Source: Nitrosopumilus sp. (GTDB lineage: Archaea; Thermoproteota; Nitrososphaeria; Nitrososphaerales; Nitrosopumilaceae). Taken from it: DNA of 64,000 nt. The notes beneath the pieces were generated by a model. That model saw only the letters and a list, made by a program, of their open reading frames with translations. It did not search any database and was not told the origin of the DNA. Location of the stretch: contig OZ250186.1 in the NCBI GenBank assembly GCA_965238275.1, forward strand, positions 768,001 to 832,000. The letters are read 5' to 3'. The position numbers were made by a program, and so were the translations under genes. Positions 3,256 to 60,658 of the stretch are shown here, in pieces (within the stretch, counting starts at the first letter, position 1; every line of letters starts with the position of its first letter).

Positions 3256-3681
3256 ATGAAACTGGCCCATCCCAAAATGACTCAGTTTGACATGAACAAC
3301 CGGATAACGGTCTGGCGCAAAGAATTCAACCTGACCGGTACCTATAAGATTCACGAAGCCGCGTCCAAACAGGCATTCCAGGCTGTAACCAAGTTTCACA
3401 AGTCAAACCGCGTAAAGCATGGAAAACGGATCTGGCGCAAGAAACAGATCATGCTCGGCAAGACCAAAACGTACAAGCACAACAGGTGGACCGAGCCATC
3501 CAGCTTGATGAGGCGCGGCAAGAAAACAATCAGGCTGCGCTCGCTGAATTCCTGTGGACGGCCAAAACTGCGAGACAGTGGAGCCGTATTCCTGCCGGGA
3601 CTTGGAGAAGCAAGACTGTGCATAAAGATCCCCGAAGGCAGGGTGCCGAACGTCCGAGTATTTGCTTTATGGAAGGAGTGA
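3256..3681 (+). pseudogene. tnpB: Truncated tnpB fragment, paralogue of the N-terminal part of 60659-62179
   Basis: MKLAHPKMTQFD...HEAASKQAFQAV...RWTEPS...KIPEGR closely matches the intact copy; RuvC half missing. Confidence 0.88.
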
Positions 3682-3748
3682 ACTGTTACTAAACTCATAT
3701 TGATGCCTGATTAAAAAAATAAATTCCACATGCCGCCTCCGGAAGGTG

Positions 3749-3925
3749 ATGCCGCTGATTAAAGTATCAATGTATCCTGGCAGGACTCAGGAGCAGAAGG
3801 ATGCGTTTGCAAAGGCCGTAACAAGGTCTGCTGTAGACATTCTCAAGACCAAGGAGATCCATGTAATCGTCATCTTTGAGGACAATCCCCGGGAGAACTG
3901 GTTTCTTGCAGGAGACCAACTCTGA
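3749..3925 (+). CDS. 4-oxalocrotonate tautomerase family protein (58 aa, not in the ORF track)
   Basis: Manual translation MPLIKVSMYPGRTQEQKDAFAKAVT...VIFEDNPRENW; catalytic Pro1 and GRTxEQK motif. Confidence 0.9.
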   Translation: MPLIKVSMYPGRTQEQKDAFAKAVTRSAVDILKTKEIHVIVIFEDNPRENWFLAGDQL

Positions 3926-4015
3926 TTATTTTTAAACTACAAATGAATCCATTCCTGCGCGGCTATGGCCTTGCGCCGGCAGATTCTTTTTATTGCAATC
4001 TGACAGACATCCCTT

Positions 4016-4822
4016 GTGAAGGCAGCAGTAGTACAGTTCAAGGCATCGACTGACAAGGCGGCCAACCTCAAGAGGGTAGTCTCGTTTATCTCCAAGGCCG
4101 CATCAAATGGTGCTGCACTGTGTGCGTTTCCAGAGTTTATGATGTTTTATACTGATTCATCACAGACGCCAGGACAGCTTGCAGCCATGGCCGAGACTGT
4201 TGATGGAGACTTTGTAACTGCCCTCTCAAGGGCTTCCCGGGAGAACCACATCGACCTAGTAGGATCGTTTTATGAAAAGAGTGCAAGGAGAAACAGGGTG
4301 TATGACACGTCTGTCATAATAGACAGAACCGGCAGGATCGTCTCTACATACCGCAAGATCCATCTCTATGACGCCCTAGGATTCAAGGAGTCCAGAAAGA
4401 TGATGCCCGGCTCTGAGATTGCAAAACCTGTAAGGACATCTGTGGGAAGAACAGGCATGATGATCTGCTACGATCTGAGGTTTCCCGAAATGTCCCGCTG
4501 GCTTGCAGCCTCCGGCTCGGAGGTTATTGTGGCACCGTCTGCATGGGTTCGGGGGGATATGAAAGAAGAGCACTGGCTCACAATCAACCGGGCGCGCGCA
4601 ATCGAGAACGGATGCTATGTAATCGCACCGGACCAGGTAGGCAACATCTACTGCGGAAGGAGCCTGGTAGTCGATCCGTTTGGCAGAATACTGCTTGACA
4701 TGGGACAGAGACAGGGCATAGGATATGCCGATATCGACACGCAAAACGTGCAGAAGACAAGGAGGATACTGCCGCTGCTCAAGAACAGAAGAACCGATGT
4801 GTACCGCTCCCCGGATTGCTAG
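4016..4822 (+). CDS. Carbon-nitrogen hydrolase (nitrilase/Nit family)
   Basis: FPE, YRKIHL and ICYDLRFPE: Glu-Lys-Cys triad. Confidence 0.92.
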   Translation: MKAAVVQFKASTDKAANLKRVVSFISKAASNGAALCAFPEFMMFYTDSSQTPGQLAAMAETVDGDFVTALSRASRENHIDLVGSFYEKSARRNRVYDTSVIIDRTGRIVSTYRKIHLYDALGFKESRKMMPGSEIAKPVRTSVGRTGMMICYDLRFPEMSRWLAASGSEVIVAPSAWVRGDMKEEHWLTINRARAIENGCYVIAPDQVGNIYCGRSLVVDPFGRILLDMGQRQGIGYADIDTQNVQKTRRILPLLKNRRTDVYRSPDC

Positions 4823-5487
4823 GTTCTGCTGCTGCATACAATGTTTGAGCACTGTCTTGTCCAGCTCTGGATTCTTGTGTACCTGAAGATTATTACCGGC
4901 CACCTGCAGACATCGCATCTGCTCTTTGTTGCCCGGAGTTTTGCCTTCTGTAGCAACGGCGATGATGCCTTGCACCCGCCGTAAAAGTTCGAACATCCCA
5001 TGAACCGCTTTCCGGTTGTTCTTGATCTGATTACCATCAGCTCGCCGAGTCCGCATTCGGGACACTGCACAAGCCCCTTCTTTGGAAAGTTTGTCCCCAG
5101 AATCATATACTTTTTCTCCCTTGAGGACCATGACAGGTAGCCTGTGGGATCTAGATACTGCTGGATCTCCCTCTTGAAGCTTTCTGCTCCGGTCTTTGTA
5201 ATCTTTACAGTGTGTCTGGGAACAGCTCTGGGAGCGGCCCGCACCTTTGGTTTCTTTGTCATGGTACCTGCTCTGGGAGCGGCCCGCACCTTTGGTTTCT
5301 TTGTCATGGTACCTGCTCTGGGAGCGGCCCGCACCTTTGGTTTCTTTGTCATGGTACCTGCTCTGGGAGCGGCCCGCACCTTTGGTTTCTTTGTCATGGT
5401 ACCTGCTCTGGGAGCGGCCCGCACCTTTGGTTTCTTTGTCATGGTACCTGCTCTGGGAGCGGCCCGCACCTTTGGTTTCTTTGTCAT
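4819..5487 (-). CDS. Topoisomerase-type C4 zinc-finger protein with basic N-terminal repeats
   Basis: CPECG..FMGCSNF..C and CDVC..C zinc ribbons; six copies of a 15-aa K/R/P/A repeat. Confidence 0.8.
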   Translation of the reverse strand: MTKKPKVRAAPRAGTMTKKPKVRAAPRAGTMTKKPKVRAAPRAGTMTKKPKVRAAPRAGTMTKKPKVRAAPRAGTMTKKPKVRAAPRAVPRHTVKITKTGAESFKREIQQYLDPTGYLSWSSREKKYMILGTNFPKKGLVQCPECGLGELMVIRSRTTGKRFMGCSNFYGGCKASSPLLQKAKLRATKSRCDVCRWPVIIFRYTRIQSWTRQCSNIVCSSRT

Positions 5488-5493
5488 GGTACC
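5225..5493. repeat. Perfect 45-bp tandem repeat, six copies
   Basis: Unit GCTCTGGGAGCGGCCCGCACCTTTGGTTTCTTTGTCATGGTACCT, no spacers; encodes MTKKPKVRAAPRAGT on the minus strand. Confidence 0.97.
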
Positions 5494-5538
5494 GGTACTA
5501 CTAAAACGATTTTTATATGGACTCCGATCAGTGGCGAT

Positions 5539-6693
5539 GTGGAGAAGGTTTGCGTTCTTGGTGCAGGCAGCACCAAATATGGAAAACTCAACGACAGCAT
5601 CGCCGATATTACGACACAAGCCTCGGTAATGGCAATCGAGGATGCAGGCATTGATCCCAAGGAAGTCAAGGCAGCATACATCTCAAACGTCTTTGGTGTT
5701 GCAGACAAGCAGGTGCATCTTGGCCCGGTTCTGATGAGCAATCTTGGAATCTCGGACAGGCCGTCATTGTCCATCGAGTCTGCCTGTGGAAGTGGCTCTG
5801 TCTCATTTAGGGAGGCATACGCAAACGTTGCAGCCGGCTTTTATGACTGTCTGGTAGTTACCGGAGTGGAGAAGGTGACCCACACTGGAACCGAATGGAC
5901 CACAACATACTTTACATACTGTTCGGACTTTTTTTACGAGGGGCAGTCAGGCGCATCATTTCCGGGACTGTTTGCCTCGATGGCACGCGCATACCTGACT
6001 GAGTTTGATGCCACTGAAGAGGATCTGGCACGGGTCGCAGTAAAGAACCACAAAAATGGCATGCTCAATCCAAAGGCCCATCTGCAAAAGGAGATCACAC
6101 TTGATGACGTAATGAATTCGCCGGTGGTTGCAAGCCCGCTTAAGCTTTACGACTGCTGTCCCTTCTCTGACGGGGCTAGTTCTGTAATACTCTGTTCTGA
6201 AAAATTTGCAAGGGAGCAGGGGGGCAGCTACGTAGAGGTAATAGGTTCTGGCAGGGGAGGTTCGCCTGCAGCCCTACAGGGCCGGGATCGCCTGACCACA
6301 ATTCCAAGTACAAAGATCGCAGCAGAGGCTGCATACAAGATGGCCGGAATAACCCCTGAGGATATAGACTTTGCAGAGGTACACGACTGTTTTACAATTG
6401 CAGAGGTGGTTGACACTGAGGATCTGGGGTTCTTTGAGAAGGGCACAGGCTTCCAGGCAGTCCGCGAGGGCAAAACCGACCTGAACTCGGATATATCGAT
6501 CAACCCGTCTGGCGGTCTCAAGTCAAAGGGACATCCGATCGGAGCGACCGGCGTGGGTCAGGTAGTAGAGGTGTATGATCAGCTTACCGGGAGGGCAGGC
6601 AGGAGAACCGTCAAGGATGCCAGAATCGGTCTTACTCACAACTTTGGCGCAACCGGGGCAAGCTGTGCAGTCCATCTGTTCCAAGGAGTATGA
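5539..6693 (+). CDS. Thiolase (acetyl-CoA acetyltransferase)
   Basis: ESACGSG, EVHDCF and KGHPIGATG motifs; GTG start at 5539. Confidence 0.93.
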   Translation: MEKVCVLGAGSTKYGKLNDSIADITTQASVMAIEDAGIDPKEVKAAYISNVFGVADKQVHLGPVLMSNLGISDRPSLSIESACGSGSVSFREAYANVAAGFYDCLVVTGVEKVTHTGTEWTTTYFTYCSDFFYEGQSGASFPGLFASMARAYLTEFDATEEDLARVAVKNHKNGMLNPKAHLQKEITLDDVMNSPVVASPLKLYDCCPFSDGASSVILCSEKFAREQGGSYVEVIGSGRGGSPAALQGRDRLTTIPSTKIAAEAAYKMAGITPEDIDFAEVHDCFTIAEVVDTEDLGFFEKGTGFQAVREGKTDLNSDISINPSGGLKSKGHPIGATGVGQVVEVYDQLTGRAGRRTVKDARIGLTHNFGATGASCAVHLFQGV

Positions 6694-6694
6694 C

Positions 6695-7060
6695 ATGTCC
6701 GTAAAGGAGAGTCTTATTGAGAACGCAAGACAGGGAAATATTCTTGTCCACAAATGCGCCGCGTGTGGCAACCTGCATCTCTCTACTGTCTATTTCTGCC
6801 AGGGATGCGGTAGCAAGGGCTTTGAGGATGTCATACTGGCAGGCACCGGCTCTGTTGTTACCTATACGATAATCACCGTGCCCCCTACAGGCTTTGAGGA
6901 GTATACCCCGTATGCCTTTGTCGTGCTTGGGCTGGACGACTCTGATCTGAGAATATCCGGATTCATGGCAGGAATAGCGACACCTGCGGATCTTCCGGTA
7001 GGGGCCCGGGCCAGGGTTGTAGGCTATGATCAGCGTGGCATTCTGATTGAAAAGCAGTAA
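6695..7060 (+). CDS. DUF35 Zn-ribbon/OB-fold protein, thiolase partner
   Basis: CxxCG..CxxCG followed by G.V..YT OB fold; directly follows the thiolase. Confidence 0.9.
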   Translation: MSVKESLIENARQGNILVHKCAACGNLHLSTVYFCQGCGSKGFEDVILAGTGSVVTYTIITVPPTGFEEYTPYAFVVLGLDDSDLRISGFMAGIATPADLPVGARARVVGYDQRGILIEKQ

Positions 7061-7129
7061 AATTATTTGTCCTGATTATTAAAAAGAATCAGACCAGCTT
7101 TTAATTATTCCAGGCATGCGATGATCTTC

Positions 7130-7291
7130 ATGTCAGTAGAGATTACATGCGGCAAGTGCGGAGAGCAGATTGTGCGGATGAAGATGCTAAAACCGCTCAA
7201 GAATATTCTGAATTCGTCAGGGGGAAAGTGTCCTTCATGCGGCCAGAAACTCTCCACATCCGAGTTCTCCCTTGACATCCAGGATGTCTGA
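7130..7291 (+). CDS. Small zinc-finger protein (53 aa, not in the ORF track)
   Basis: MSVEITCGKCG...GKCPSCGQKL. Confidence 0.75.
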   Translation: MSVEITCGKCGEQIVRMKMLKPLKNILNSSGGKCPSCGQKLSTSEFSLDIQDV

Positions 7292-7374
7292 CACCATTAT
7301 TCCCTGAAACCCCTGCATTCTATGTCAAAATGAATTGACACTATGTTTATTTACTTTCACATCAAGATATTCTT

Positions 7375-9483
7375 GTGGACGACGACGACGTAGAACCGAA
7401 GAGGAGCGGCATACTCAAATCCACCTCAAAGCGTGTAAGGATGATCTTCTCCGTCATGGCAAGTCCCAACCGGATCGATATTCTTCGAATCCTTAACTCC
7501 AAGGGCCCCCTGACTTACTCTGAACTAAAGTCGCTTGCCGGATTCAAATCAAAAAAAGAGAGCGGCAAGTTTGCATACCACCTGAGAAAATTGCTCCGGC
7601 AGTCACTTGTGGCACTCAACAAATCCGAAAGACGTTACACCATTACCAATCTGGGAAAGCTGGTGCTGAGCTTGGCACGGCAGATCGAGGAGAGATCCAT
7701 CATTGAGAGCGGAAAGATGTACGTCAGGACATCGCACAACTCGTTTGAGGAGTTTAATCCCTACAAGATAGTCCAGTCGCTGGTTCGCGAGGGGAACCTT
7801 CCACTGGAATTGGCTCAGAAGATTACCGAGGAGGTGGAGAACCGCATCTACAAGTATCAGACCACCTACCTTACAGGCTCGCTTATCCGAGAGCTGGTCA
7901 ACTCCGTCTTGCTTGAGCACGGCCATGAGGAGTACCGGGGCAGGCTTGCACGCATGGGCATACCGCTTTACGACATGAATGAAATGATCTCCAATCTGGA
8001 GGGAATGAACAACGGAGTAGAGGACCTCCAGTTTGCCATCAGCCAGAAGGTTCTTGCCGAGCAGCTTATCTCAAGCACACTGCCCAAGGATCTGGCAGAC
8101 TCGCACCTGTCCGGCGATCTGCACATTACCAATCCCGGAGCCTGGTCGCTGATTCCTGACACCATCTTTGTCAACATCAAGGAGATCTTTGAGGACGGGG
8201 TAAACCTTGGCGGCAAGTACCTTGACGTGCCCAGGGTTCCATCATCCGGGCAGCTTGGCAATCTTGCAATCTCGCTTTCAATCATGATATCCCTTCTCTC
8301 AAAAGAGGCGTCCCGGGAAGTAGTACTTGACGGACTGGTCGCGCTGTTTGCCAACCACAGCTCCGCCCCGGATCTCGAACAGAACATTACCAATGCGTTT
8401 GTGGCCGCATCCCCCACATCAAAACATAATGACCCAGGCACTGTAGTCTCAGTCAGACTTCAGCTGGGCTCTGACCCGGAGACGACTGCTGCCATAATCG
8501 GTGCATACAAGAACTATACAAGGATTACACCGACTCCAAAGATAGGTCTCATAATTGACTATGGCAAGGAGGCAGTCTCCGGCGTCTCCGGTCAGATATC
8601 TGAGATAATACTGCTCGGGGGACGGGTCAGTTTTATCAACGGACACATGTCAAGCTCTGGGCTGGCCACCGGCTCCAAAAGGAACCACGGACCGGTATCA
8701 GTGGCGCTCCAGTCCGTCTCGATCAATCTTCCGAGACTTGCATTCGAATCAAACAAGGACGAGACCTACTTTCGGGCAAGACTTGCGCTGCTGATGAAGC
8801 CGGCTCTTGCGGCAATGGCGCTAAGAAAGAAGGGCATTCTGGATCTTACCAGGAAGGGACTCCACCCAATTCTTGCACAGAACATCCAGTTTATGCAGAG
8901 GAATTCCGTATCCCTGATCATAAATCTGGTTGGACTCAAGGAGGCGGTATTTGGTATTCTGGGATACAAAAACGACAAGGAAGGCCGCGAGATCCTTCAA
9001 AAGGTAATTACGACTGCAGTGGACGTGGGCAACAAGAGCGGCAAGGATCTGGGCGATCCAGTCTTTGTATGCATGATTGATACTGACAGCTCGGCGCGTT
9101 TTGCAGGGCTGGACGGCGAAAAGTACGGCAAGAATTCAGTCATTGGCTCCCCGGAGGACAGCTCCTACTCCCAGGGAGTGACAATCAATGCATCTGAAAT
9201 CCACCAGTACACCGGCAGAAGCGAGCCGATATCCGAATCCAACAGGTTCTCAAGGTTCCTCAATGGGGGCGTGTCCATTACACTGCAGATTGACAGGGAT
9301 GCCGGGTACGAGACAGTCAAGGATTCCATAGAGAAGATGTCAGAGCTTGTCTCTCACTTTCGGCCCGTCAAGGACATCGTAATGTGCAACGAATGCGGCT
9401 TCAAGGATGAGCCGTTTGAGGACAGGTGCCCAAGATGCAATTCTCGTTACACCGCCTCAAACCAGAATGATTTCGGGGACTGA
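7375..9483 (+). CDS. ArsR-type HTH + ATP-cone + degenerate class III RNR (NrdD)-like protein
   Basis: N-terminal HTH (RIDILRIL..LTYSEL..AYHLRKL); ATP cone (VRTS..EEFN..KI); HLSGDLHI and VSINLPRLA NrdD motifs; terminal CxxC..CPxC without a glycyl-radical motif. Confidence 0.8.
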   Translation: MDDDDVEPKRSGILKSTSKRVRMIFSVMASPNRIDILRILNSKGPLTYSELKSLAGFKSKKESGKFAYHLRKLLRQSLVALNKSERRYTITNLGKLVLSLARQIEERSIIESGKMYVRTSHNSFEEFNPYKIVQSLVREGNLPLELAQKITEEVENRIYKYQTTYLTGSLIRELVNSVLLEHGHEEYRGRLARMGIPLYDMNEMISNLEGMNNGVEDLQFAISQKVLAEQLISSTLPKDLADSHLSGDLHITNPGAWSLIPDTIFVNIKEIFEDGVNLGGKYLDVPRVPSSGQLGNLAISLSIMISLLSKEASREVVLDGLVALFANHSSAPDLEQNITNAFVAASPTSKHNDPGTVVSVRLQLGSDPETTAAIIGAYKNYTRITPTPKIGLIIDYGKEAVSGVSGQISEIILLGGRVSFINGHMSSSGLATGSKRNHGPVSVALQSVSINLPRLAFESNKDETYFRARLALLMKPALAAMALRKKGILDLTRKGLHPILAQNIQFMQRNSVSLIINLVGLKEAVFGILGYKNDKEGREILQKVITTAVDVGNKSGKDLGDPVFVCMIDTDSSARFAGLDGEKYGKNSVIGSPEDSSYSQGVTINASEIHQYTGRSEPISESNRFSRFLNGGVSITLQIDRDAGYETVKDSIEKMSELVSHFRPVKDIVMCNECGFKDEPFEDRCPRCNSRYTASNQNDFGD

Positions 9484-9857
9484 GGTATCATTAAAATTGG
9501 ATTGTTATGAGTTTAATGATAGTAGTACCATTCATATGGCATCTGCCGTCTATCATGGCATGATGGATAAATTTACATATAAACCTAAGGTATAATTATA
9601 CCCAATTCTCATATTATTTTTCATACCAATACGACAAAAGTTGGAACGGTGTACCCATAACCAATAATACCGTAAATTCGTGCCTAGATCCGACCCACTA
9701 TGCTGGCTGTGCCTTGACTAGGTTCATTAGAGTGTACAGTATATATCTGTGTCCAATAGTTATTCATGTACGTAATCATCTTTTTCTTAACTTAGTGTAT
9801 TATGTAAACACAATTAAAATTTATAACCATATAGATCCAAGGGCTTGTGATGTTTCG

Positions 9858-12509
9858 ATGAATAATTCTCAGATAGAGAATTCCATATCCCAAATCACGA
9901 AGCGAAGCGGGGCCGTTACTGTGTTCAACAAGAACAAGATCTCAAGTGCCATATACAAGGCACTGGCCGCTACCTCCAAGGCCGATCACAGTCTGGCCGA
10001 TCAGCTTGCAGACCGGGTTGTAGCCAAGCTGGCCGAACAGGGATTTACAAAGTCCCATACCCCGACAGTGGAACACATTCAGGATATTGTCGAGATGACA
10101 CTGATTGACAGCGGTCACAGTGACATAGCCAGGGCGTATATCGTATACAGACACGAGAGAAGAAAGCTCCGGGAGGAGAAGATGAAGGTTCTGAATCTGC
10201 GTGCGCTTGATCCGGTCTCAAAGAAGTTTGATCTGAACTGTCTGAGGGTGCTTGCATCAAGATACCTGATGAGAAACGACAGGAATGAGATTACCGAGTC
10301 CCCCACACAGATGTTTGAAAGGGTTGCAGTAGTGGTGGCAATAGGGGATCTCATGTATGACTCTGCCATATTTGACAAGACGGGGGGACATGTTCAGAAC
10401 ACGGACGAGGCCGTGTCATACCTTCAAAAACTGGACTCGTTTGACTACAAGTTCAAGATAGGGCAGTACTACCTCAACAAGTACCACTTTAGGTCACTGA
10501 TCAACTTGTATGTGGAACTTGGCAGACGGGGGCAGATGAGGATCAGTTTCAAGGCATTGTTGATGTTGCTGGTAGGCAAGAAGCTTGACAAGCACGCCGA
10601 TCGTGTTACAGAATACTTTGAACTTATGACATCGCAGGACTTTCTGCCAAACTCGCCTACGATGATGAATGCAGGAGGGAGGCTTGGACAGCTGTCTGCA
10701 TGCTTTGTTCTGGGAATGGATGACGGCATGGAGGAGATCATGAAGTCTACATCGGATGCGGCACTAATCTTCAAGTCCGGAGGCGGCGTCGGAATCAACT
10801 ATTCAAATCTACGGGAAGAAGGCGACATAGTGGCCTCGACTTCGGGAGTCGCATCAGGCCCTGTCTCATTCATGAACATAATCAATACCGTGACTGAGGT
10901 AGTCAAGCAGGGTGGAAAGAGACGTGGGGCCAACATGGGCATCATAGAGTCGTGGCACCCTGATGTAGAAAAATTCATCACCAACAAGACCGAACCCGGG
11001 GTACTGGAGAATTTTAATATCAGCGTTGGAATATGGGAGGATTTTTGGGATGCGCTGGTGAATACAAAGGACGGCAACTATGTCCTGCGCAGTCCCCGTG
11101 ACAAGACCCCCGTCAAGGAGATAAACGCACACCAGCTGACTGACCTGATTGCGCTGTCTGCATGGAAGAGCGCAGAGCCCGGACTCATATTCTTTGATCA
11201 AATCAACAAGTACAACGTATTTGCCAAGGCCAGGAAGGCCCCTCTGAGGGCAACCAATCCGTGCGGCGAGCAGAGCCTTTATCCGTACGAGTCGTGCAAT
11301 CTGGGATCCATCAACTTGGCAAACCTGGCCAACAGGCAGGCAGACGGATCCTACAAGTTTGACTGGCAGCGGTACGAGGAGATGATCAGAAAGACGACAA
11401 GATTCCTTGACAATATAATAGATGTCAACAACTATCCGATTGAAGAGATCAGCAAGGCGTCAATAGAGTCTCGAAGAATAGGACTTGGCGTAATGGGGGT
11501 AGCCGATCTTTTGTACAAGCTCCGCATCCCGTACAACTCCGAGGACGGCTACCGTATGCAGGCGAGGCTCTCTGAGGCCCTGACATACTATTCCATGGAG
11601 GAGAGTGTTGCACTTGCACGGTTCCGTGGCGAATTTCCTCTGTGTTCAAAGACAGAATACCCTGACGGAAAGATTTCCGTTGCCGGATACTATGAGAAGC
11701 CAAAGGAGCAGCACTCGTATGAGTGGGATGCCCTGATTGGGAAGATCAAGACGCACGGCATCCGAAACGTCCTGACTACCACCGTGGCACCCACGGGGAC
11801 ACTCTCCATGATTGCAGACTGTTCCAACGGAATGGAGCCTGCCTTTGCACTGGTCTTTGAAAAAAGGGTTACTGTTGGAAGATTCTTTTACACAAACAAG
11901 GTAGTTCAGGATGCACTCAAGGAGGCCGGGCTTTACAATGACCAGATTCTTGCCAAGATCGCAGACAACTACGGTTCCCTAAAGGGAATTCCAGAGATTC
12001 CCCAGTGGATGCAGGATACGTTCGTGACTGCCATGGACATACACTGGACTGATCATCTCATGGCACAGAGCGTATGGCAGGACTGGATTGGAAATGCCAT
12101 TGCCAAGACCATAAACATGCCGTATGATGTAACTGCTGAAGACGTAAAATCCGCATACCTGCTGGCCCATGAAATGGGCCTTAAGGGAATAACAGTATAC
12201 AGGGACGGCTCCAGACACACGCAGGTCCTTCACATGACAAGCCAGAATGCAGAAAAGACGTTTGAGGTCAGGCCCAGCAGGTTTGTTACCGAGTTTATAA
12301 AATCCAACATTACAAATCCGTACGTCAGATCCCATGCTACTGCAGCACTTGCGCTAAAGCCCCATGACAGTGAGATCAAGACCGAATCCCAAAAACCTGA
12401 GAATATACCCGAGGATCAACTGTGTCCCACGTGCAAGAACCGCCTTGCCTTCATGGAAGGCTGCAGCATCTGTATTGAATGTGGACACAGCGGCTGCACA
12501 TCTGGATGA
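9858..12509 (+). CDS. nrdJ: Adenosylcobalamin-dependent (class II) ribonucleotide reductase
   Basis: ATP cone; PNSPT..NAG, LSACFV, TNPCGEQ, CNLGSIN, APTGT, KGITVYRDGSR motifs; C-terminal Cys cluster. Confidence 0.96.
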   Translation: MNNSQIENSISQITKRSGAVTVFNKNKISSAIYKALAATSKADHSLADQLADRVVAKLAEQGFTKSHTPTVEHIQDIVEMTLIDSGHSDIARAYIVYRHERRKLREEKMKVLNLRALDPVSKKFDLNCLRVLASRYLMRNDRNEITESPTQMFERVAVVVAIGDLMYDSAIFDKTGGHVQNTDEAVSYLQKLDSFDYKFKIGQYYLNKYHFRSLINLYVELGRRGQMRISFKALLMLLVGKKLDKHADRVTEYFELMTSQDFLPNSPTMMNAGGRLGQLSACFVLGMDDGMEEIMKSTSDAALIFKSGGGVGINYSNLREEGDIVASTSGVASGPVSFMNIINTVTEVVKQGGKRRGANMGIIESWHPDVEKFITNKTEPGVLENFNISVGIWEDFWDALVNTKDGNYVLRSPRDKTPVKEINAHQLTDLIALSAWKSAEPGLIFFDQINKYNVFAKARKAPLRATNPCGEQSLYPYESCNLGSINLANLANRQADGSYKFDWQRYEEMIRKTTRFLDNIIDVNNYPIEEISKASIESRRIGLGVMGVADLLYKLRIPYNSEDGYRMQARLSEALTYYSMEESVALARFRGEFPLCSKTEYPDGKISVAGYYEKPKEQHSYEWDALIGKIKTHGIRNVLTTTVAPTGTLSMIADCSNGMEPAFALVFEKRVTVGRFFYTNKVVQDALKEAGLYNDQILAKIADNYGSLKGIPEIPQWMQDTFVTAMDIHWTDHLMAQSVWQDWIGNAIAKTINMPYDVTAEDVKSAYLLAHEMGLKGITVYRDGSRHTQVLHMTSQNAEKTFEVRPSRFVTEFIKSNITNPYVRSHATAALALKPHDSEIKTESQKPENIPEDQLCPTCKNRLAFMEGCSICIECGHSGCTSG

Positions 12510-12874
12510 TCAAATCCTGCAAGGCTGCCGTGCCAAAACAGTAAATCTACACCGTGATCAGACCCACGCATATGTCATAAGGTTTTCAGACACGGATGCG
12601 GCATCCGGCGGGGCATGTTTAAGACACATACCGTTGCCGATGATTAATCATGATCAGGTATCAGCACTTTTTTTAGTGGCACGGATTCCCAAAAGTATGA
12701 TGGGATTCCTGGTATCTAAAACACGTGGAGTGATATTGAAAAAACCGGTTCACGATTTAAATCATGGTTTTGTTTGTTTGAATAAGATAGAATTTCTCCC
12801 CATTTACAGGTATTTCCAGGTGGCAGGCGACTCCGTTCTTGGCGCCGGCGGGTTTGTTATTGAACGGCTGGATC

Positions 12875-17888: not shown

Positions 17889-18750
17889 TTATGATTCTGT
17901 GCGGATCTCTTTCTTTGTAGGCAGCATGGAAAACCAGGATCTCGGGGAGCCGCCCGTGCCGCCCTGCGCCACCAGCACCTCGTCTACGTACTGGATCAGT
18001 TTGCTGGAAATCAGGTGGTCTGTTTTTGTAACCGTAATCACGAACTGGACGTTGTGTGTTTTTGACCGTTTGACCATGCCGTTGATTAATTTCATGATGC
18101 CGTCATATTGGGTAAAGAGCCACCCTTCCTCTATCACTATCACTTTTCTCGTCTCTGACGGTATCGACTTGGCGCACTGCCAAATGGCGTCCAACGCGCA
18201 AAACAACACGAAGAGTTCTGACTGTTTGGTGCCAATCGTAGGGGCTGAAAACACGCAGCCCCTCTTGATGTTCGGCTTGCTGCCGGGCTCGTCGTTAAGA
18301 AACTGTGCCGACAGGCGCGAAATCTCGTTCCTGTGGCGTTCTGGAATCAGTCCCAAAAACTCCCGCATGGAAGAGGCGCGTTCGGCGCACGTTCCGAGTT
18401 CGTATACCACGTCGTTGTCCAGCCCTGCAAATTCGCCCAACAGGTTGGCTATGTTGAACGGATGGGAATCCCTTATGGGATCAAGCCCCAGTGACGGCTT
18501 GTCCTTGACCGATATGTTTTGTATGTCGAACCGTTCCCGTTCATATTCATACTCTCCTGTAACGTCCAAAACGAACACTACTGCCCCGGATTTTATGGAA
18601 TGCTCTATTATTGATTTGGCAATGAAAGATTTTCCGCTTCCAGATTTGCCCACGAGTGCGAGATTGCGAGTGGTTGGTTCGTCTGAAACGAAATTGGCTA
18701 GAGCCCAGTCGTCAAAAACGATCGTATCTTGACTCTTTGAATCTTTCACG
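17889..18750 (-). CDS. VirB4/HerA-like P-loop ATPase (start uncertain, possibly a remnant)
   Basis: Walker A GKSGSGKS, VLDVTGEY, Walker B-like VIVIEEGW. Confidence 0.7.
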
Positions 18751-19973
18751 CATACAGACGCATGTCTGCATATAAATAAATGTACTTTTGATTTTGCCAA
18801 ACCAAGAAAAATTATAGCCGCTCCATCTCTGTATGTGACTTGGAAGATGTCGCCCACTCGTGCCTGCGCAGGCATCGGACACGGGTAAATTTCACGTATA
18901 TGGAACATCATTGCTGTTCAGGTTCTGTTAACTTATCAAGATCTGCCGACGGCTGTTAACCGTCGGGATCTTGTTGCTCGCCAACTGATCAGCATCGACT
19001 GAATTCTTCACCATGAGACTTATCCTCTCGTGGCTATCCATCTCCATCGCTTCATTTGCGGATCCTACGGGCACGACCTTTGTGCCTCGTGCAAGTATGT
19101 TGATACATGCATGCTTGTCACGGTCTACCGTGATGTTTCCGACAGGGCATCGCACCATTCTGCGCTCTTCGGTGATCATTGTTTCACCACATGCCGCGCA
19201 TTTCGAGCTTGTGCCCCTCGGATTTACTTTGATTGGAACCGTTCCATTCCACCTTGCCTTGTATTCAATCTGCCTTCCCAATTCGTAATAACCCCAATTC
19301 TTGCCGTTAAAATTGGCAGTCTTTCCCTTCCTGGCTTTCTTGTTCCACAGTTTTGTTATTCCTTCCAAATCTTCCAGAACCGGAACGTGTCCAGAGTCAA
19401 CTATCCTTTTGCTTGCCTTGTGTAGGATGTCATTAGTCCTGTTTTTTCCAATCCGACCGTATTTGCCTGCTATCTTTTTTCTTATCCTGTGGTCGTTTCT
19501 CTTGAAATTGGAGACCGTTTTCCTGCATTGCCGCTTGATCTTGCCGACTTTTGAAAGATCGTGCCTGACTATCCTGTCGTCCGTATCACACGTGGTGACG
19601 TTGTCAAAATTCATGTCTATCCCGACGTAACCCTGCGGAGTCCTTTCTTCGATTTTTTTGGAACATGCCAGTATCAGTTTGTTCGGAGTGACGGTGATTC
19701 CTCCCAGACTCATGCCATCTATCGTTTCCAACACGTAAGATGCCAGTTTGATTTTGATCTTCGTCTTGGCTTTCACTGACAGCTCCACGAACCCGTCGGA
19801 TATCTTGCATGCCTGGTTGTTGAACTTTAATATTTTTCCGGTGACGTAAGGGACTCCCGCGTTTTTGCCTTTTCGCTTGTTTGTACGCATTGGCTTCAGC
19901 ATGGATTTTGCGGAGTAGATTGCGGTCTGTTTGACTGACGCATACAAATCACTTTTCAGTTCGTGATATATTA

Positions 19974-21455
19974 GAAGCCATGCGTAATCCCTCCATTTCG
20001 TTGGGTTAAACCAGAAAAACCCAGAAAATATTAAAAATTCTGATTTAATTCCCGTCATGTCAAGCGTGTGGAAACCCGTCCTGCCAGAAATACAAAATAA
20101 CGTGCGCAACCTTGCAGCACCACGATGTGCACGGAATTAATTGTTTGAAACGGCGCTGCCGGGGACGTTTGCCTCTTCCCAGTTTATTACCGGCCCCAGC
20201 GTGCTACCTGAAGGAGGTCCTTTCTTCATCTGGTTCCACAGGAGGTCCAGGTTTACGAGTCCGGTTATTATGTTAAATTCCCTGTTAAAGTCGCCAATCT
20301 TTCCTTTGTATGGCGCGGTAAGCCGGCCGTACCGCTTCAGCCTGCCGATGGAGTGCTCCACCTTTACCCTGGCCGAGTTGACGGCGTGGTTGTGCTCCTT
20401 TTCCTCCTTTGTAAAGCGCTTGTGGTTCTTGGTCTTCTTGTGCGGCTGCAGGGTGTTTGTGCCGGGCAGATCCTTTGCGATTCCCTTGTAGCCGCGGTCA
20501 GTAAGGGTGTGGATCCTGTCCTCTTCGGGGGTGTCCTCGTCGCACATCCTGTCCCACCATCTTCCAAATGGCAGCGGGCTCTCCCTGAGCAGCGTGATGT
20601 CGTGGACGGATCCCACGGTGCTGCCGGATATGGCGACTATCACCCCGTTTTCATTTATGCACACGGTGGTGTTGAGCGTGAATTTCTTCTTCTTGCCAGA
20701 ATACATCATGCTCCTCATCTGTTTTTCGTCTGGCCGCTGCAGCGGACAGTGCGTGCCGTCGATCATCATGATGCCCCCGTCAGGCCCGGAAATTATTTTT
20801 TTGAGATCCTCTTTTGTCTCCGTGCCTGCTATCTCCTTTGAGATGTTGGTAGCGGTGGGCAGCACCGCCTCAAGCACCTCGTCTAGCACATCGATATACC
20901 GGGACACGGTCGCCTGGTCTATTCCAAAGAATGCCGCAAGCACGCCCTGCGTGGGGTTGCCCTTTTTGTACATCAGCGCCATGAGCAGCGCGTGCCTTGG
21001 GTACAGCTTGCAGCGGTTCCCGGGATCCGACGCCCTCGTCTCGTCACTCCTGAAGAGCGGGGATTTGCCGCTTTGCCTTATCCACGCCTCGGCCCTGTCA
21101 AGCATGTATTGGAACTGTTCCCTGCGCTTCAGCGTCGCGTCATGAAGATTTTTCCCGACTCTGATGATCTCATCAAGGACCTCCACGCGATGCAGCAGGG
21201 CGGGCTCTCCTGCGGCTCCGGACTCGGAGCCGTCCCGTGTGCGCCACAGGCTTTGCTCGTGCCTGGCAGCTGCGTCCTGGCGCTTGATCATGTCTCTGAG
21301 AGCCTTGTTCTCTTTTTGCAGGTCACTTGTTTTCTGATTCGACAACAGTATGAACCGGCATATTTTGGTTTTAATTGAATGGATCATAAATTTTTGACAG
21401 CAGGGCTAACATGTCAACGCGGAGTTTGAAAAAGTTCTGGATTACGCATATTTTC
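19974..21455 (-). mobile_element. IS5-family (ISL2/Harbinger-like) insertion sequence, copy 1
   Basis: Imperfect TIRs GAAGCCATGCGTAATCC / GGATTACGCATATTTTC; TA duplication at 19972-73 and 21456-57. Confidence 0.9.
20137..21387 (-). CDS. DDE transposase (HTH_Tnp_4 + DDE_Tnp_4 type), intact
   Basis: FGIDQATVSR HTH; IDGT, YSGKKK, HD, DRGY, R..VEHSIGRLK. Confidence 0.92.
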   Translation of the reverse strand: MIHSIKTKICRFILLSNQKTSDLQKENKALRDMIKRQDAAARHEQSLWRTRDGSESGAAGEPALLHRVEVLDEIIRVGKNLHDATLKRREQFQYMLDRAEAWIRQSGKSPLFRSDETRASDPGNRCKLYPRHALLMALMYKKGNPTQGVLAAFFGIDQATVSRYIDVLDEVLEAVLPTATNISKEIAGTETKEDLKKIISGPDGGIMMIDGTHCPLQRPDEKQMRSMMYSGKKKKFTLNTTVCINENGVIVAISGSTVGSVHDITLLRESPLPFGRWWDRMCDEDTPEEDRIHTLTDRGYKGIAKDLPGTNTLQPHKKTKNHKRFTKEEKEHNHAVNSARVKVEHSIGRLKRYGRLTAPYKGKIGDFNREFNIITGLVNLDLLWNQMKKGPPSGSTLGPVINWEEANVPGSAVSNN

Positions 21456-21768
21456 TATTGATTCGTGGAAAGATTTCCTTGAAGTCAGGCCACGTTCCAG
21501 TCCAAGGCGGATCGACTCGTTTGTCACGCGGCGGAATTCCTCAAAATAATCCGCCAGCTCCTCATTTTTGTCATGGAACTGCCAGACTGATTTTGTCACT
21601 TTTACGATTATTATTGCGTTTGTTTTTATTTAAATGCTCAAGTTCCGCCATTTTTGCTAAAAAACACAAAACAGATCACGACGGTTAACAGCCATCGGCA
21701 GATCTCGATAAGTTAACAGAACCGCTGTTCATAATCAATTTATACATAGTGCCTGCCATCACCCCTTG

Positions 21769-22345
21769 ATGTTTACCGGGATAGTCGAGGGCACAGGCAG
21801 GGTCATGGACATTACCCGCTCTGACCGGAGAAGCGCCATGAGGGTTACTGTGGATCTGGGAGTCTGAGGGACTGCAGACCGGGCAAAGCGTCGCCCTGAA
21901 CGGCGTCTGTCTTACTGCAACCAATCTGTCTGGCTCCGAGTGCGTCTTTGAGATGATTGAGGAGACTGTAACCAGGACGGACCTTGGCAATCTGAATGTG
22001 GGCGGGGTGGTAAACATAGAACGGAGCCTCAGGGTGGGCGACAGGCTTGAGGGGCACTTTGTACTGGGCCATGTAGACGGGGTCGGAACCATCCTGGAGA
22101 TCCAGAAGAAACCCGACGAGGTCAGCGTGTCCTTTGAGGTTCCAGAGGACCTCTCAAGGTATATAGTACAGAAGGGCTCTGTTGCCATAGACGGCATCAG
22201 CCTGACTGTAGTTGATGTCAGGGATAACGTGGTATCCGTATCGCTTATCCCCCACACAGTCGATGTTACAAACTTTCACACCAGAAAGCCTGGCGACAGG
22301 GTCAACATCGAGACTGACATCCTTGGAAAATATATCCTAAAGTAG
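21769..22345 (+). pseudogene. ribE: Riboflavin synthase (bacterial alpha-chain type), frameshifted near 21860
   Basis: MFTGIVEG start, SVALNGVCLT, GHFVLGHVDG, KGSVAIDGISLT; span of 577 bp is not a multiple of 3. Confidence 0.85.
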
Positions 22346-59260: not shown

Positions 59261-59312
59261 GGCCGCGCATTCTTGGGGCGTGATTCTGGCACTGCCTATA
59301 GTGAAAAGCGAA

Positions 59313-60606
59313 AGACGCCATGTGTTGCCGTTGTAACGGTGATCATGGCATTTACCCTGTTGGACCTGAGAGTCGACACGAACTTGCCACTTATGATGGC
59401 GTGCGAAAGAGTGACTCAAGGTATGCGGATGGTCAAATACCGCTTTGACGGTGAATGGGAGTTTTCCGCTGGTCGGGTCCGATATGCTGCAAAGGAGGTG
59501 ATAGCACGTATTACATTGGAATAGACGTTCACAAAAAGAAATGCGTTTCAACCATCAAGGGCAAAACCAACAAGATACTAAGGCAGGCTGAATTTGACAA
59601 TAATGTCCGGGGAATAACCGAATTCGTCAAGATGATCCGCAAGGAAGGATACGTGCCGGCTACGGCCGTCTGCGAATCCACGGCCAACTACTGGATAGTC
59701 GTGCACGACATGCTCGAGGATGTCGGCATCAACACCCTGCTGGCCCACCCACACAACACGAAGATCATAACCGAAACCGTCTACAAAAACGACAAGGCAG
59801 ACTCGGCAAAGCTGGCAGACCTGTGCAGGCTGGACATGATCCCGGAGTCGTTCGTGGCCGACAAGCCCGCGCGGGACCTGCGCGAACTGACCCGCACCCG
59901 CCTGGGCATGAAGATGTACGCCACCGCCCCAAAGAACCGCATCCACGCGATCCTGGCCAAATACCCGCACGAGCAGCCCAAGGGAGGACTTTACGGGACC
60001 TGGACTCGAGTGGCTGCAGGCCGTGCCCCTGAGGGAGGTTGACCGCATGGCGGTGCAGTCGCATCTGGCCACCATCGATACCGTACTAAAGCAGGTGGCA
60101 AAATTTGAAAAAAAGGTAGCCGGGATTGCAATGAGCGACAGGAGGGCACAGCTGATCATGACCATACCCGGAATAGGCTACGTTACGGCAGTAACCATAC
60201 TTGCCGAAATAGTCGACCACAGCAGGTTTGCTGACGCCGAAAAGATGGCCTCATACGCCGGCCTGGTGCCAAAACACCACAACAGCGGGGAGACCGTCAG
60301 GACCGGCGGCATCACAAAACGCGGCTCCGTCTGGCTGCGCCGCGCCATGGTCGAGGCCGCGTTAGTTGCCGTCCAGCACGATGTCCGGATAGGGGCGCGC
60401 TACCAAAGACTGGCAACCCGCATAGGACCCATGAAGGCAAGGGTCGCCGTGGCCAGGCAGATGCTCGAATGGGTCTGGGAGATGCTTGAGCACAGCACCG
60501 AGTACAGGACCCAGGACAGGGATCTTGTAAGACGAAAATTCCAGAGAATAAAACGCATTGCCGACACACAACATCAACGGGTTTGGATGCCCGTAACACA
60601 TGGGAG
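59313..60606 (+). mobile_element. IS110-family element
   Basis: AG core at both junctions (59313-14, 60605-06); subterminal inverted repeat CCATGTGT/ACACATGG; removal restores the host TIR. Confidence 0.87.
59317..59480 (+). ncRNA. Candidate IS110 bridge RNA
   Basis: 5' hairpin, outer stem GGACCTGA/TCGGGTCC and two internal-loop hairpins; loop 1 strands ACACGAACT and GTGCGAAAG match the target, loop 2 ATGGGAG matches the element end. Confidence 0.75.
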
Positions 60607-60643
60607 TTCGTGCAATTTTTTGAGATCCTTTTTAAGAAAATAA
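59506..60643 (+). pseudogene. IS110 DEDD recombinase; ACG in place of the start codon and a frameshift near 60000
   Basis: YIGIDVHK, CEST, KNDKADS, IPGIG, YAGLVP....SG; SD-like GGAGGTGA upstream. Confidence 0.9.
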
Positions 60644-60658
60644 ATCCCAACTACAGGT

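What the first reader, a model, noticed from the sequence alone, without database searches (positions are those of the whole stretch)
18913..21731. Second, unrelated TnpB enclosed by IS6-like 50-bp TIRs with an 8-bp target duplication
Seen: TIRs 47/50 identical starting GGTTCTGTTAACTT, with GCTGTTCA duplicated on both sides. The tnpB stop codon lies inside one TIR, and only about 75 bp, including a TTTAAATA TATA-like box, separate the other TIR from the GTG start. Established: GGTTCTGTT ends with 8-bp duplications are typical of the IS6 family (e.g. IS257/IS431). Inference: the TSD implies this unit, or its TIR shell, moved by DDE transposition. With the 59-62 kb element, this points to repeated independent capture of TnpB by TIR transposons in this lineage.
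Basis: partly seen in the sequence, partly recalled or inferred. Interest (0 to 1): 0.88.

Follow-up and report, generated by a model that had tools for sequence, protein, structure and literature searches.

The report
TnpB gene inside IS6-type transposon ends
This is a small jumping element of a marine ammonia-oxidising archaeon that carries only the RNA-guided nuclease gene tnpB but has the ends and 8-bp target duplication of an IS6-type transposon, and this copy has been broken by a second insertion.

Summary
TIRs 18921-18971 / 21673-21723 match at 48 of 51 bases. GCTGTTCA is duplicated on both sides. The tnpB stop lies inside one TIR, and 73 bp with a TATA-like box precede the GTG.

tnpB is split by a 1484-bp IS5-like IS (19973-21456, 3-bp duplication ATT). 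Contigs from 3 of 4 public runs carry the same locus without it, so intact alleles exist.

This unit is a family. A same-genus genome (G367) holds an 82%-identical copy elsewhere with duplication TGAATTAT. Nine more TnpB-only elements (34-45% protein identity) in Nitrosopumilaceae have GGTTCTGTCAA-type TIRs and 8-bp duplications.

IS6-family transposase elements in the same clade carry matching ends. One in G339 matches this TIR at 22 of 25 bases, with an 8-bp duplication.

The window's genome has no IS6 transposase above the curated cut-off and no Y1 TnpA.

Best reading: a non-autonomous, TnpB-carrying IS6-type element moved in trans by IS6 transposases. This copy is dead.

DDE-linked TnpBs are already published (IS630, ISL2, IS1031). 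I found no IS6 link in print. The scan has noted this family three times on other DNA. Verdict: new variant of a known kind. The guide RNA and TnpB's role remain inferred.

The parts
18913..18920 (.). 8-bp target-site duplication GCTGTTCA, copy next to the tnpB 3' end
   Evidence: Identical to 21724-21731
18921..18971 (-). Terminal inverted repeat at the tnpB 3' end. It starts GGTTCTGTTAACTT, holds two CTGTTAAC motifs and a 13-bp hairpin, and contains the tnpB stop codon.
   Evidence: The RNA hairpin folds at -18 kcal/mol, z = -5.4.
18928..19969 (-). tnpB, C-terminal 346 codons plus stop (18928-18930). Includes the RuvC motifs and the TNB zinc-ribbon region.
   Evidence: Pfam PF07282 59.6 bits. 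81% identical to the intact G367 TnpB. Aligned to ISDra2 TnpB 8bf8 via the G367 protein.
19970..19972 (.). 3-bp target duplication (ATT) of the nested IS, left copy
   Evidence: 3 copies flanked by ATT and 1 by AAT
19973..21456 (-). Nested IS5-like insertion sequence, 1484 bp, ends AGAAGCC..TTTTCT, splitting tnpB. Not part of the TnpB element proper.
   Evidence: Three other copies at 99.7% identity or more, and one at 94%. Ends defined. Absent from this site in contigs of runs X5, X9 and X16.
20137..21387 (-). Transposase of the nested IS (416 aa, DDE_Tnp_4 with HTH_Tnp_4)
   Evidence: Pfam 95.1 and 38 bits. NCBIfam IS5 models all below cut-off.
21457..21459 (.). 3-bp target duplication (ATT) of the nested IS, right copy
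21460..21599 (-). tnpB, N-terminal part. GTG start at 21599.
   Evidence: Joins in frame to 19969 after removing 1487 bp, giving 394 aa. N-terminus MTKSVWQFHDKN matches G367 MKVTKSVWQFHDKN.
21627..21634 (-). TATA-like box TTTAAATA, about 28 nt upstream of the GTG
   Evidence: Sequence. AGCATTTAAATAAAAA is shared with the G367 copy. Promoter function is inferred.
21673..21723 (+). Terminal inverted repeat at the tnpB 5' end
   Evidence: 22 of 25 terminal bases match the TIR of an IS6-transposase element in G339.
21724..21731 (.). 8-bp target-site duplication GCTGTTCA, second copy

Best explanation
The stretch 18921-21723 is a non-autonomous transposon of the IS6 type whose only gene is tnpB, an RNA-guided nuclease.

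Anatomy. Without the later IS5-like insertion it is 1316 bp: a 51-bp TIR, 73 bp holding a promoter-like TATA box, a 394-codon tnpB whose last codons and stop lie in the other TIR, and an 8-bp target duplication.

How it moves (inferred). It encodes no transposase. IS6-family DDE transposases supplied in trans by related autonomous elements bind the GGTTCTGTTAAC termini, probably also the second subterminal TGTTAAC motif. They insert the unit with a staggered 8-bp cut, most likely by the replicative cointegrate route known for IS6.

What tnpB does (expected from the TnpB family, not shown). It should make a guide RNA from its own 3' end, with the scaffold ending at the outer edge of the TIR, so the guide would be the target duplication plus adjoining flank. 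The nuclease would then cut element-free alleles and promote copying or retention of the element.

State of this copy. It is a relic. tnpB is split by an IS5-like IS, the element is single-copy, and this genome has no closely matching IS6 transposase. Uninterrupted alleles of the same insertion exist in other samples.
For: Shown:
- TIRs, target duplication and gene layout.
- A second copy, 82% identical over 1239 bp, lies at another locus in G367 with duplication TGAATTAT and an intact 395-aa TnpB (NF040570 121.4 bits, cut-off 100).
- Counting the window, 11 TnpB-only elements of 1.2-1.4 kb from published genomes have TIR pairs with an 8-bp duplication: 8 at 8 of 8 and 3 at 7 of 8.
- The stop codon lies in or next to the TIR throughout the clade.
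- The TIR is conserved as DNA, not as protein. TIR identity between G000 and G367 is 90-92% against 82% overall, yet the two C-terminal tails differ after DADQLA.
- IS6-transposase elements with matching ends and 8-bp duplications:
  - G339 L152:5610-7970, TIR 24 of 24, duplication CATTGTGT, 127.5 bits.
  - G112 L156:2920-6434, duplication TGAAATTA, 130.8 bits.
  - G339 L139:3489-7945, duplication TGTTTCGA, 127.0 bits.
- The L152 TIR matches the window's 5' TIR at 22 of 25 bases.
- This complete genome has no Y1 TnpA despite 34 TNB-domain hits.
- IS6-end TnpBs and their unlabelled kin form one side of a branch with SH-aLRT 99, against the 22 other TnpBs of this genome (quick tree).
- Genomes with this TnpB clade more often hold an IS6 transposase: 32 of 62 against 99 of 339. 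Kin are not independent, and the tallies include unpublished genomes.
- An intact allele exists. Contigs in 3 of the 4 runs laid join 19968 to 21456, skipping 1487 bases, and bridge the left junction.
Against: - No IS6 transposase above the curated cut-off is in this genome. The best is 86.5 bits, from an IS6-like IS with GGTTCTCC ends that makes 9-bp, not 8-bp, duplications.
- In G367 no transposase was found next to GGTTCTGTTAAC ends either.
- No element holding both an IS6 transposase and tnpB between one TIR pair was found.
- Not every relative fits. L080 has a TIR pair (22 of 23) but no duplication. L072 has a TIR of 19 of 26 with 1 of 8. L065 is ambiguous (6-8 bp). Many relatives showed no recognisable end motif with my patterns.
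- The duplication screen required at least 6 of 8 matches, so it cannot give a rate.
- The guide RNA is not shown. Rfam found nothing. The 6-bp covarying helix found in relatives is unpaired in the window and G367 rows. Pairing of the terminal motif with upstream sequence is no better than shuffles for these two copies.
- A replicative transposon leaves no empty donor site, so the benefit of a homing nuclease is unclear.
Confidence: 0.8

Rival explanations
1. Nested insertion. An ordinary IS1341-type (IS200/IS605) tnpB element happened to land inside an empty IS6-type MITE, so the TIRs and tnpB are unrelated passengers.
For: Elements with the same GGTTCTGTTAACTT ends but other contents exist in this genome (61757 to about 64190, and 1471746 to about 1475670). 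So the shell can carry different cargo, and the family may have begun this way.
Against: There is no room for separate IS200/IS605 ends. The stop codon lies inside one TIR, and only 73 bp separate the other TIR from the start. The same tight arrangement is kept in elements whose TnpBs are only 34-45% identical. These TnpBs cluster in the tree. No Y1 transposase is in the genome.
Confidence: 0.05
2. The element is mobilised by the resident 1694-bp IS6-like IS of this genome (381-aa transposase; TIR GGTTCTCCTGCATCATCGG..), not by classical IS6-type transposases.
For: That IS is present in 4 full copies here and is 100% identical at protein level in G367, the only other genome with this TnpB element. 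Its ends share GGTTCT and a subterminal GGATCTT motif with the TnpB element.
Against: It makes 9-bp duplications in 3 of 3 copies examined, whereas the TnpB elements have 8 bp. Beyond the first 6 bases the ends differ. The L152-type IS6 ends match far better, at 22 of 25.
Confidence: 0.1
3. The 51-bp repeats with their hairpins are IS200/IS605-style subterminal hairpins used in single-strand 'peel and paste' transposition, and the flanking 8-bp repeat is coincidental.
For: Each TIR holds an imperfect palindrome, CCGACGG-CTGTTAA-CCGTCGG. A related hairpin with changed stem bases is in another element's end.
Against: Eleven elements have 8-bp duplications, each with a different sequence. The ends are inverted copies over 51 bp, including non-palindromic termini. 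IS200/IS605 has neither TIRs nor duplications (review PMC13565253, passages). The genome has no Y1 transposase.
Confidence: 0.03

Closest known systems
IS6/IS26-family insertion sequences and their MITEs (review: Varani et al. 2021, PMC7986276)
   Same: 8-bp direct target repeats and short conserved terminal IRs starting GG (passages read). Elements in the same archaeal family whose transposases pass the NCBIfam IS6 model have nearly the same ends. I recall that IS257/IS1216 ends begin GGTTCTGTTGCAAAGT; no call checked this.
   Different: This element has no transposase and carries tnpB instead. Its TIR is 51 bp here, against about 14 bp in the review. The review does not mention TnpB (0 occurrences). 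The IS6 elements found in these archaea are 2.2-4.5 kb with cargo ORFs and 372-379-aa zinc-finger transposases, not about 800 bp.
IS1341-group (TnpB-only) elements of the IS200/IS605 family
   Same: A single tnpB gene, a compact 1.2-1.4 kb element, non-autonomous. TnpB has RuvC motifs and the TNB domain.
   Different: IS200/IS605 has no TIRs and makes no target duplications (PMC13565253, passages). This family has both, and this genome has no Y1 transposase.
DDE-transposase-associated TnpB branches (Altae-Tran et al. 2023, PMC10691335; summarised in PMC13565253)
   Same: Prokaryotic TnpBs inside transposons with symmetrical ends and DDE transposases are described there: IS630 in the text, and ISL2, IS630 and IS1031 in the review (passages read).
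   Different: IS6 is not among the families named in the passages I read. Here tnpB and the transposase are on separate elements that share ends. I could not see the figures or supplements, which may place this clade in one of the DDE branches.
Fanzor (eukaryotic TnpB homologues) in TIR/DDE transposons
   Same: A TnpB-type nuclease carried between TIRs that make target duplications. The review discusses the duplication serving as part of the TAM (PMC13565253, passage).
   Different: This element is archaeal, much smaller, IS6-type, and has variable 8-bp duplications. No TAM or guide has been determined.

Membership tests
IS6 family insertion sequence | Encodes an IS6-type DDE transposase | tested here: not met
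   The only ORFs are tnpB and the nested IS5-like transposase. The genome's best NF033587 hit is 86.5 bits against a cut-off of 125.
IS6 family insertion sequence | Conserved terminal inverted repeats of the family type | tested here: met
   48 of 51 TIR. 22 of 25 terminal bases equal the perfect TIR of a G339 element whose transposase scores 127.5 bits on NF033587.
IS6 family insertion sequence | 8-bp direct target repeats | tested here: met
   GCTGTTCA on both sides. Ten more TnpB elements have 7-8 of 8 matches. Feature as stated in PMC7986276.
IS6 family insertion sequence | Replicative transposition through cointegrates | not testable with these tools
   Needs a transposition assay.
IS200/IS605 family, IS1341 group | Carries tnpB as its only gene | tested here: met
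IS200/IS605 family, IS1341 group | No TIRs and no target duplication; asymmetric hairpin ends | tested here: not met
   51-bp TIRs and an 8-bp duplication.
IS200/IS605 family, IS1341 group | A Y1 (HUH) TnpA available in the genome for mobilisation | tested here: not met
   PF01797: 0 matches in the 99.9%-complete genome; the controls ring in 6 of 14 genomes.
RNA-guided TnpB (NCBIfam guided_TnpB, NF040570) | Profile match above the curated cut-off | tested here: met
   G367 orthologue scores 121.4 bits against a cut-off of 100. The window's C-terminal part scores 59.6 bits on the TNB domain, cut-off 26.3. The joined window protein was not scanned.
RNA-guided TnpB (NCBIfam guided_TnpB, NF040570) | RuvC acidic residues present | tested here: met
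   GIDMNFDN, VLEDLEG and VDRDKHA are present. In the G367 protein, the E and the DRD align to TEHL and HDRDENAA of ISDra2 TnpB 8bf8. The first D lies outside that alignment. The catalytic numbering is recalled, not from a call. The second CxxC of the zinc ribbon has lost one Cys (CPVGN).
RNA-guided TnpB (NCBIfam guided_TnpB, NF040570) | omega-RNA encoded at the 3' end, with the guide taken from the flank | tested here: inconclusive
   The 3' 140 nt fold better than shuffles (z = -3.5 here, -2.8 in G367). The covarying helix in relatives is not paired in these two rows. No Rfam match. No RNA run was listed.
MITE | TIRs and a target duplication with no coding capacity | tested here: not met
   It carries a full tnpB, 394 codons once the nested IS is removed.

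The most novel reading that the evidence does not exclude
In ammonia-oxidising archaea, an RNA-guided nuclease lineage has become a long-term passenger of IS6-type transposons. The transposase-binding TIR doubles as the last part of the guide-RNA scaffold. The guide is therefore the freshly made 8-bp target duplication plus flank, and TnpB homes a replicative DDE transposon into element-free alleles. On this reading the target-site choice of the transposase and the TAM of the nuclease would have had to co-evolve. Three of the 11 duplications begin TGAA when read in tnpB sense.
Probability: 0.25. Interest if true: 0.8.

Novelty: new variant of a known kind. Interest (0 to 1): 0.6.

Why it matters
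TnpB is thought to pay its way by restoring transposons that excise without a scar (IS605, IS607). A recent review treats its rarity in DDE transposons as meaningful (PMC13565253, passages).

Here a whole clade of TnpB-only elements uses IS6-type ends and 8-bp duplications. It was found in 62 of 401 Nitrosopumilaceae genomes by protein similarity, with ends confirmed in 11 elements. IS6 is a family believed to transpose replicatively. This raises a concrete, testable question: what does a guided nuclease do for a copy-in transposon, and how is a TAM satisfied when the guide starts in a variable target duplication?

It also explains how a genome can hold 34 TnpB-domain hits and no Y1 transposase.

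Practically, intact alleles (G367, and contigs in three runs) give compact 394-395-aa archaeal TnpBs for testing.

Tried and rejected
- Empty site. The closest genome with the right flank (G110, 81% identity) also lacks the HerA-like ORF left of the element, so no clean empty site was obtained.
- Autonomous partner in G000 or G367. Short-motif scans found only non-transposase elements or solo ends with GGTTCTGTTAAC. The G367 IS6-type gene (117.8 bits) showed no recognisable TIRs within 12.5 kb.
- First TIR search around 14 IS6-type transposase genes with 9-nt exact seeds and 700-bp flanks. It gave only chance-level repeats, because the elements are 2.2-4.5 kb. This was solved later with wider regions.
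- Rfam. No family matched 18700-22000 at E up to 1.
- Pairing of the terminal TIR motif with upstream RNA. It is significant in one subgroup (9-bp helix, 4-11 of 500 shuffles as good) but not for the window (149 of 500) or G367 (252 of 500). I dropped it as evidence for this copy.
- TGAA at the start of 3 of 11 duplications (tnpB sense) and of one IS6 element's duplication. The numbers are too few and the orientation is arbitrary, so I left it unexplained.
- Expression. No RNA holder was listed.
- Depth steps were not used as copy numbers.
- The 'careful' tree did not finish in 300 s, so the quick tree is reported.
- Literature. 'TnpB' + 'Nitrosopumilus' gave 0 papers. 'TnpB' + 'Thaumarchaeota' gave 1, irrelevant by title. 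'TnpB' + 'IS6' + 'DDE' as whole words gave 7, none on this topic by title or abstract start.
- Supplements and figures of PMC10691335 were not seen and may already hold this clade.
Full report
**1. The observation**

- The repeat finder reports one long inverted pair, 18921-18971 against 21673-21723, 51 nt at 94%. Base by base this is 48 of 51, starting GGTTCTGTTAACTT.
- The first 32 bases, with up to 3 mismatches, occur only at these two places in the window. 0 of 100 shuffles gave any match.
- They also occur only at these two places in the whole 2,216,668-base single-contig genome.
- GCTGTTCA flanks the repeats on both sides, at 18913-18920 and 21724-21731.
- On the minus strand, a GTG at 21599 opens a reading frame that is cut at about 21460. 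It resumes at 19969 and ends with a stop at 18928-18930, inside the TIR.
- The C-terminal part carries the Cas12f1-like TNB domain, 59.6 bits against a cut-off of 26.3.
- 73 bp lie between the other TIR and the GTG. They include TTTAAATA about 28 nt upstream of the GTG.

**2. The nested element**

- The interruption is an IS5-like insertion sequence with a 416-aa transposase (DDE_Tnp_4 95.1 bits, HTH_Tnp_4 38 bits).
- Three other genomic copies are at least 99.7% identical, and one is 94% identical.
- These copies fix its ends at 19973 and 21456 (AGAAGCC..TTTTCT, 1484 bp) with a 3-bp target duplication.
- Of the 5 copies, 3 are flanked by ATT and 1 by AAT. One was unclear at my coordinates.
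- Removing 1487 bp restores a 394-codon tnpB.
- This is confirmed in nature. Contigs in 3 of the 4 public runs I laid (X5, X9, X16, from three studies) join 19968 to 21456, 'skips 1487'. In the same runs, contigs bridge the left junction of the outer element.
- The fourth run (X2) holds the interrupted form.
- One X16 contig matches from 18921 inward but continues outward into different sequence. That fits a copy at another site. It is a single contig and I did not follow it up.

**3. It is a family, not an accident**

A second, close copy:
- Among 401 genomes of the same family (Nitrosopumilaceae; record titles name Nitrosopumilus), the 32-nt TIR pattern was found in only one other genome, G367, of the same genus.
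- There the element (L043:2001-6580) lies next to a pyrophosphatase gene, not at the window's locus.
- It is flanked by TGAATTAT on both sides and has an intact 395-aa TnpB. That protein scores 121.4 bits on NCBIfam guided_TnpB, cut-off 100.
- With its own two nested ISs removed (an IS5-like with an IS66-like inside it, sitting between TATA box and start codon), it is 82% identical to the window element over 1239 bp. The TIRs are 90-92% identical.
- The predicted C-terminal tails of the two proteins differ after DADQLA, although the DNA there is the conserved TIR. So the end is kept as DNA or RNA, not as protein.

More distant relatives:
- A protein search of the same 401 genomes found relatives at E up to 1e-30 in 62 genomes, mostly 30-45% identical.
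- In many of the best loci the tnpB stop codon abuts a motif GG(T/A)(T/A)CTGTCAAGTT, which recurs inverted upstream.
- Counting only published genomes, and including the window and G367, 11 TnpB-only elements of 1.2-1.4 kb have a TIR pair plus an 8-bp flanking repeat.
- Eight of these match at 8 of 8: window, G367, L062, L074, L096, L117, L157, L158. Three match at 7 of 8: L045, L107, L108.
- Every duplication has a different sequence.

Caveats on that count:
- The screen required at least 6 of 8 matches.
- In the unfiltered pass, of 7 rows with a TIR of at least 18 of 26, 5 had 7-8 of 8. Two of those 5 are from unpublished genomes and are not counted above. One row (L065) was ambiguous at 6-8 bp, and one (L072) had none.
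- L080 has good TIRs but no duplication.
- Many relatives showed no end motif with my patterns.

Tree:
- In a quick maximum-likelihood tree of 49 TnpBs, the IS6-end TnpBs plus unlabelled kin form one side of a branch with SH-aLRT 99. The other 22 TnpBs of this genome are on the other side.
- Two fragments under 300 aa, one 647-aa ORF and the four unpublished loci were left out.
- The rows were picked by similarity, and the careful search did not finish.
- The nearest paralogues inside this genome are only about 26% identical.

**4. Who moves it**

In this genome:
- There is no Y1 transposase (0 matches to PF01797) despite 34 TNB-domain hits.
- There is no IS6 transposase above the curated cut-off. 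The best is 86.5 bits against 125.
- That best hit belongs to a 1694-bp IS6-like IS. It has about 83-bp TIRs starting GGTTCTCC and makes 9-bp duplications in 3 of 3 copies examined.

In relatives that hold TnpB elements:
- True IS6-type transposases (372-379 aa, with SWIM and zinc-ribbon N-termini; NF033587 127-131 bits) sit in elements with the same kind of ends and 8-bp duplications.
- G339 L152:5610-7970 has a perfect 24 of 24 TIR, GGTTCTGCTAACTTGTCGAGACCT, and duplication CATTGTGT.
- G112 L156:2920-6434 has duplication TGAAATTA.
- G339 L139:3489-7945 has duplication TGTTTCGA.
- The L152 end matches the window's 5' TIR at 22 of 25 bases.
- None of these transposase elements contains tnpB. 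They carry other ORFs.

Across the 401 genomes:
- IS6-type genes (E up to 1e-25) are in 131 genomes.
- 32 of the 62 TnpB-positive genomes have one, against 99 of the other 339. The odds ratio is 2.6 and Fisher p is 0.001.
- Related genomes are not independent, completeness varies, and the tallies include genomes flagged unpublished. This is only a weak supporting hint.

Other elements with the same ends:
- This genome also holds two larger transposase-less elements with GGTTCTGTTAACTT ends and repeated subterminal TGTTAAC motifs.
- The window TIR has CTGTTAAC at positions 5-12 and 33-40.
- I read the second motif as a further transposase-binding site. This is inference.

**5. The nuclease and its RNA**

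- The RuvC-type motifs are present in the window protein: GIDMNFDN, VLEDLEG and VDRDKHA.
- In the G367 orthologue, the E and the DRD align with ISDra2 TnpB (8bf8, E = 2.5e-9). The first D lies outside that alignment. The catalytic numbering is from memory.
- One Cys of the second zinc-ribbon pair is lost.
- The last 140 nt of the gene fold more stably than shuffles: z = -3.5 here and -2.8 in G367.
- The hairpin in the 3' TIR (-18 kcal/mol, z = -5.4) is stronger than the one in the 5' TIR (-9.4, z = -2.1).
- In an alignment of 16 element 3' ends, RNAalifold finds one 6-bp long-range helix. 88.5% of its cells are paired, 33 cells are changed on both sides, 0 of 500 shuffles do as well, and slid controls give 18-41%.
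- However, the window and G367 rows are not paired in it under that alignment.
- Rfam has no match, and no RNA run was listed.
- So a guide RNA is expected from the family, but for this lineage its scaffold and guide are not shown.
I favour flanking, because conservation runs to the last TIR base in all copies.

**6. Comparison with what is known**

- IS200/IS605 and IS607, the usual homes of tnpB, have neither TIRs nor target duplications (PMC13565253, passages).
- TnpB branches linked to DDE transposases with symmetrical ends are published. The text of PMC10691335 names IS630 (passages). The review lists ISL2, IS630 and IS1031.
- IS6 is not named in what I read.
- The IS6 family review (PMC7986276, passages) gives 8-bp repeats, about 14-bp IRs, cointegrate formation and two MITEs. 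It does not mention TnpB.
- My searches for TnpB with Nitrosopumilus or Thaumarchaeota found nothing relevant.
- Figures and supplements were not available to me.
- Notes of this scan on three other genomes (e1-2601215, e1-5280983, e1-2422719) describe decayed members of what appears to be the same family in other ammonia-oxidising archaea. They agree with this reading, but they are unchecked AI notes.

**7. The 59-62 kb element**

- It is an IS110-type element (59296-60564) whose transposase is split into two ORFs (PF01548 69.1 bits, PF02371 98.9 bits).
- It is inserted into the left TIR of a roughly 1.5-kb TnpB-only element that ends at 62107.
- That element belongs to a separate family of roughly 20 copies, whose ends are inverted repeats TATAG(T/C)G..AGCGAAAGTTCGTGCAA.
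- So two unrelated TnpB lineages in this genome both have TIR-type ends.
It does not show the order of events.

**8. Verdict**

- The feature is real and correctly described.
- It is a dead copy of a TnpB-carrying, non-autonomous IS6-type element. Intact alleles and relatives exist elsewhere.
- Mobilisation by IS6 transposases in trans is well supported by anatomy but not demonstrated.
- The role of TnpB is inferred.
- Novelty: new variant of a known kind.

Noticed in passing
window 19973-21456; also L043:2183-5376: The same IS5-like IS (3-bp AWT duplication) has hit the TnpB element independently in both genomes. In G000 it lies inside the ORF. In G367 it lies between the TATA box and the start codon, and there it is itself interrupted by an IS66-like element (L043:3727-5367).
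   Followed up: partly
window 59296-62107: An IS110-type element with a frameshifted transposase sits in the left TIR of a TnpB-only element. That element belongs to a family of roughly 20 copies with TIRs TATAG..GCGAAAGTTCGTGCAA. The same IS110-beside-TnpB arrangement recurs at genome 2146754-2149882. The target duplication of that TnpB family was not resolved.
   Followed up: partly
own genome C1:853917-855610 and 3 other copies (outside the window): A 1694-bp IS6-like IS with about 83-bp TIRs (GGTTCTCCTGCATC..), a 381-aa zinc-finger transposase (NF033587 86.5 bits, below cut-off) and 9-bp duplications. Its transposase is 100% identical in G367 (L046:1540-2685), which suggests recent exchange.
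   Followed up: partly
L139 (G339:C1:1778500-1793500) 3489-12652: Three IS6-type elements lie head to tail, each separated by the same 8 bases, TGTTTCGA. This looks like repeated insertion at one target next to a resident end, or an IS26-like array.
   Followed up: no
own genome C1:61757 to about 64190, and 1471746 to about 1475670 (outside the window): Two transposase-less elements have GGTTCTGTTAACTT ends and repeated TGTTAAC motifs but carry unrelated ORFs. One has a nested IS5-like IS. They show that the same shell carries other cargo.
   Followed up: partly
own genome C1:1020528-1021699 (outside the window): A 1172-bp element with ends GGTTCTGTAACATCTTCGAG / GGTTCTGTATAATCTTCGAG and an 8-bp duplication TTTTTACG. 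It encloses a 184-aa ORF that looks secreted and no transposase.
   Followed up: no
window 17889-18911 (minus strand): A HerA/TraG-like P-loop ORF (DUF87, 42.4 bits) starts 1 nt from the element's target duplication. The closest related genome (G110) lacks both this ORF and the element between the TPR gene and the riboflavin synthase gene, so the spot has taken up foreign DNA more than once. In G367 the element likewise sits 2 nt upstream of the pyrophosphatase start codon.
   Followed up: partly
window 18920 (run X16): One contig matches the element from its first TIR base inward but continues outward into unrelated sequence. This suggests a further copy at another site in that community.
   Followed up: no
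target duplications of the 11 TnpB elements: Read in tnpB sense, 3 of the 11 duplications begin TGAA (window, G367, L062). One IS6-transposase element has TGAAATTA. There are too few cases to call this a target or TAM preference.
   Followed up: partly
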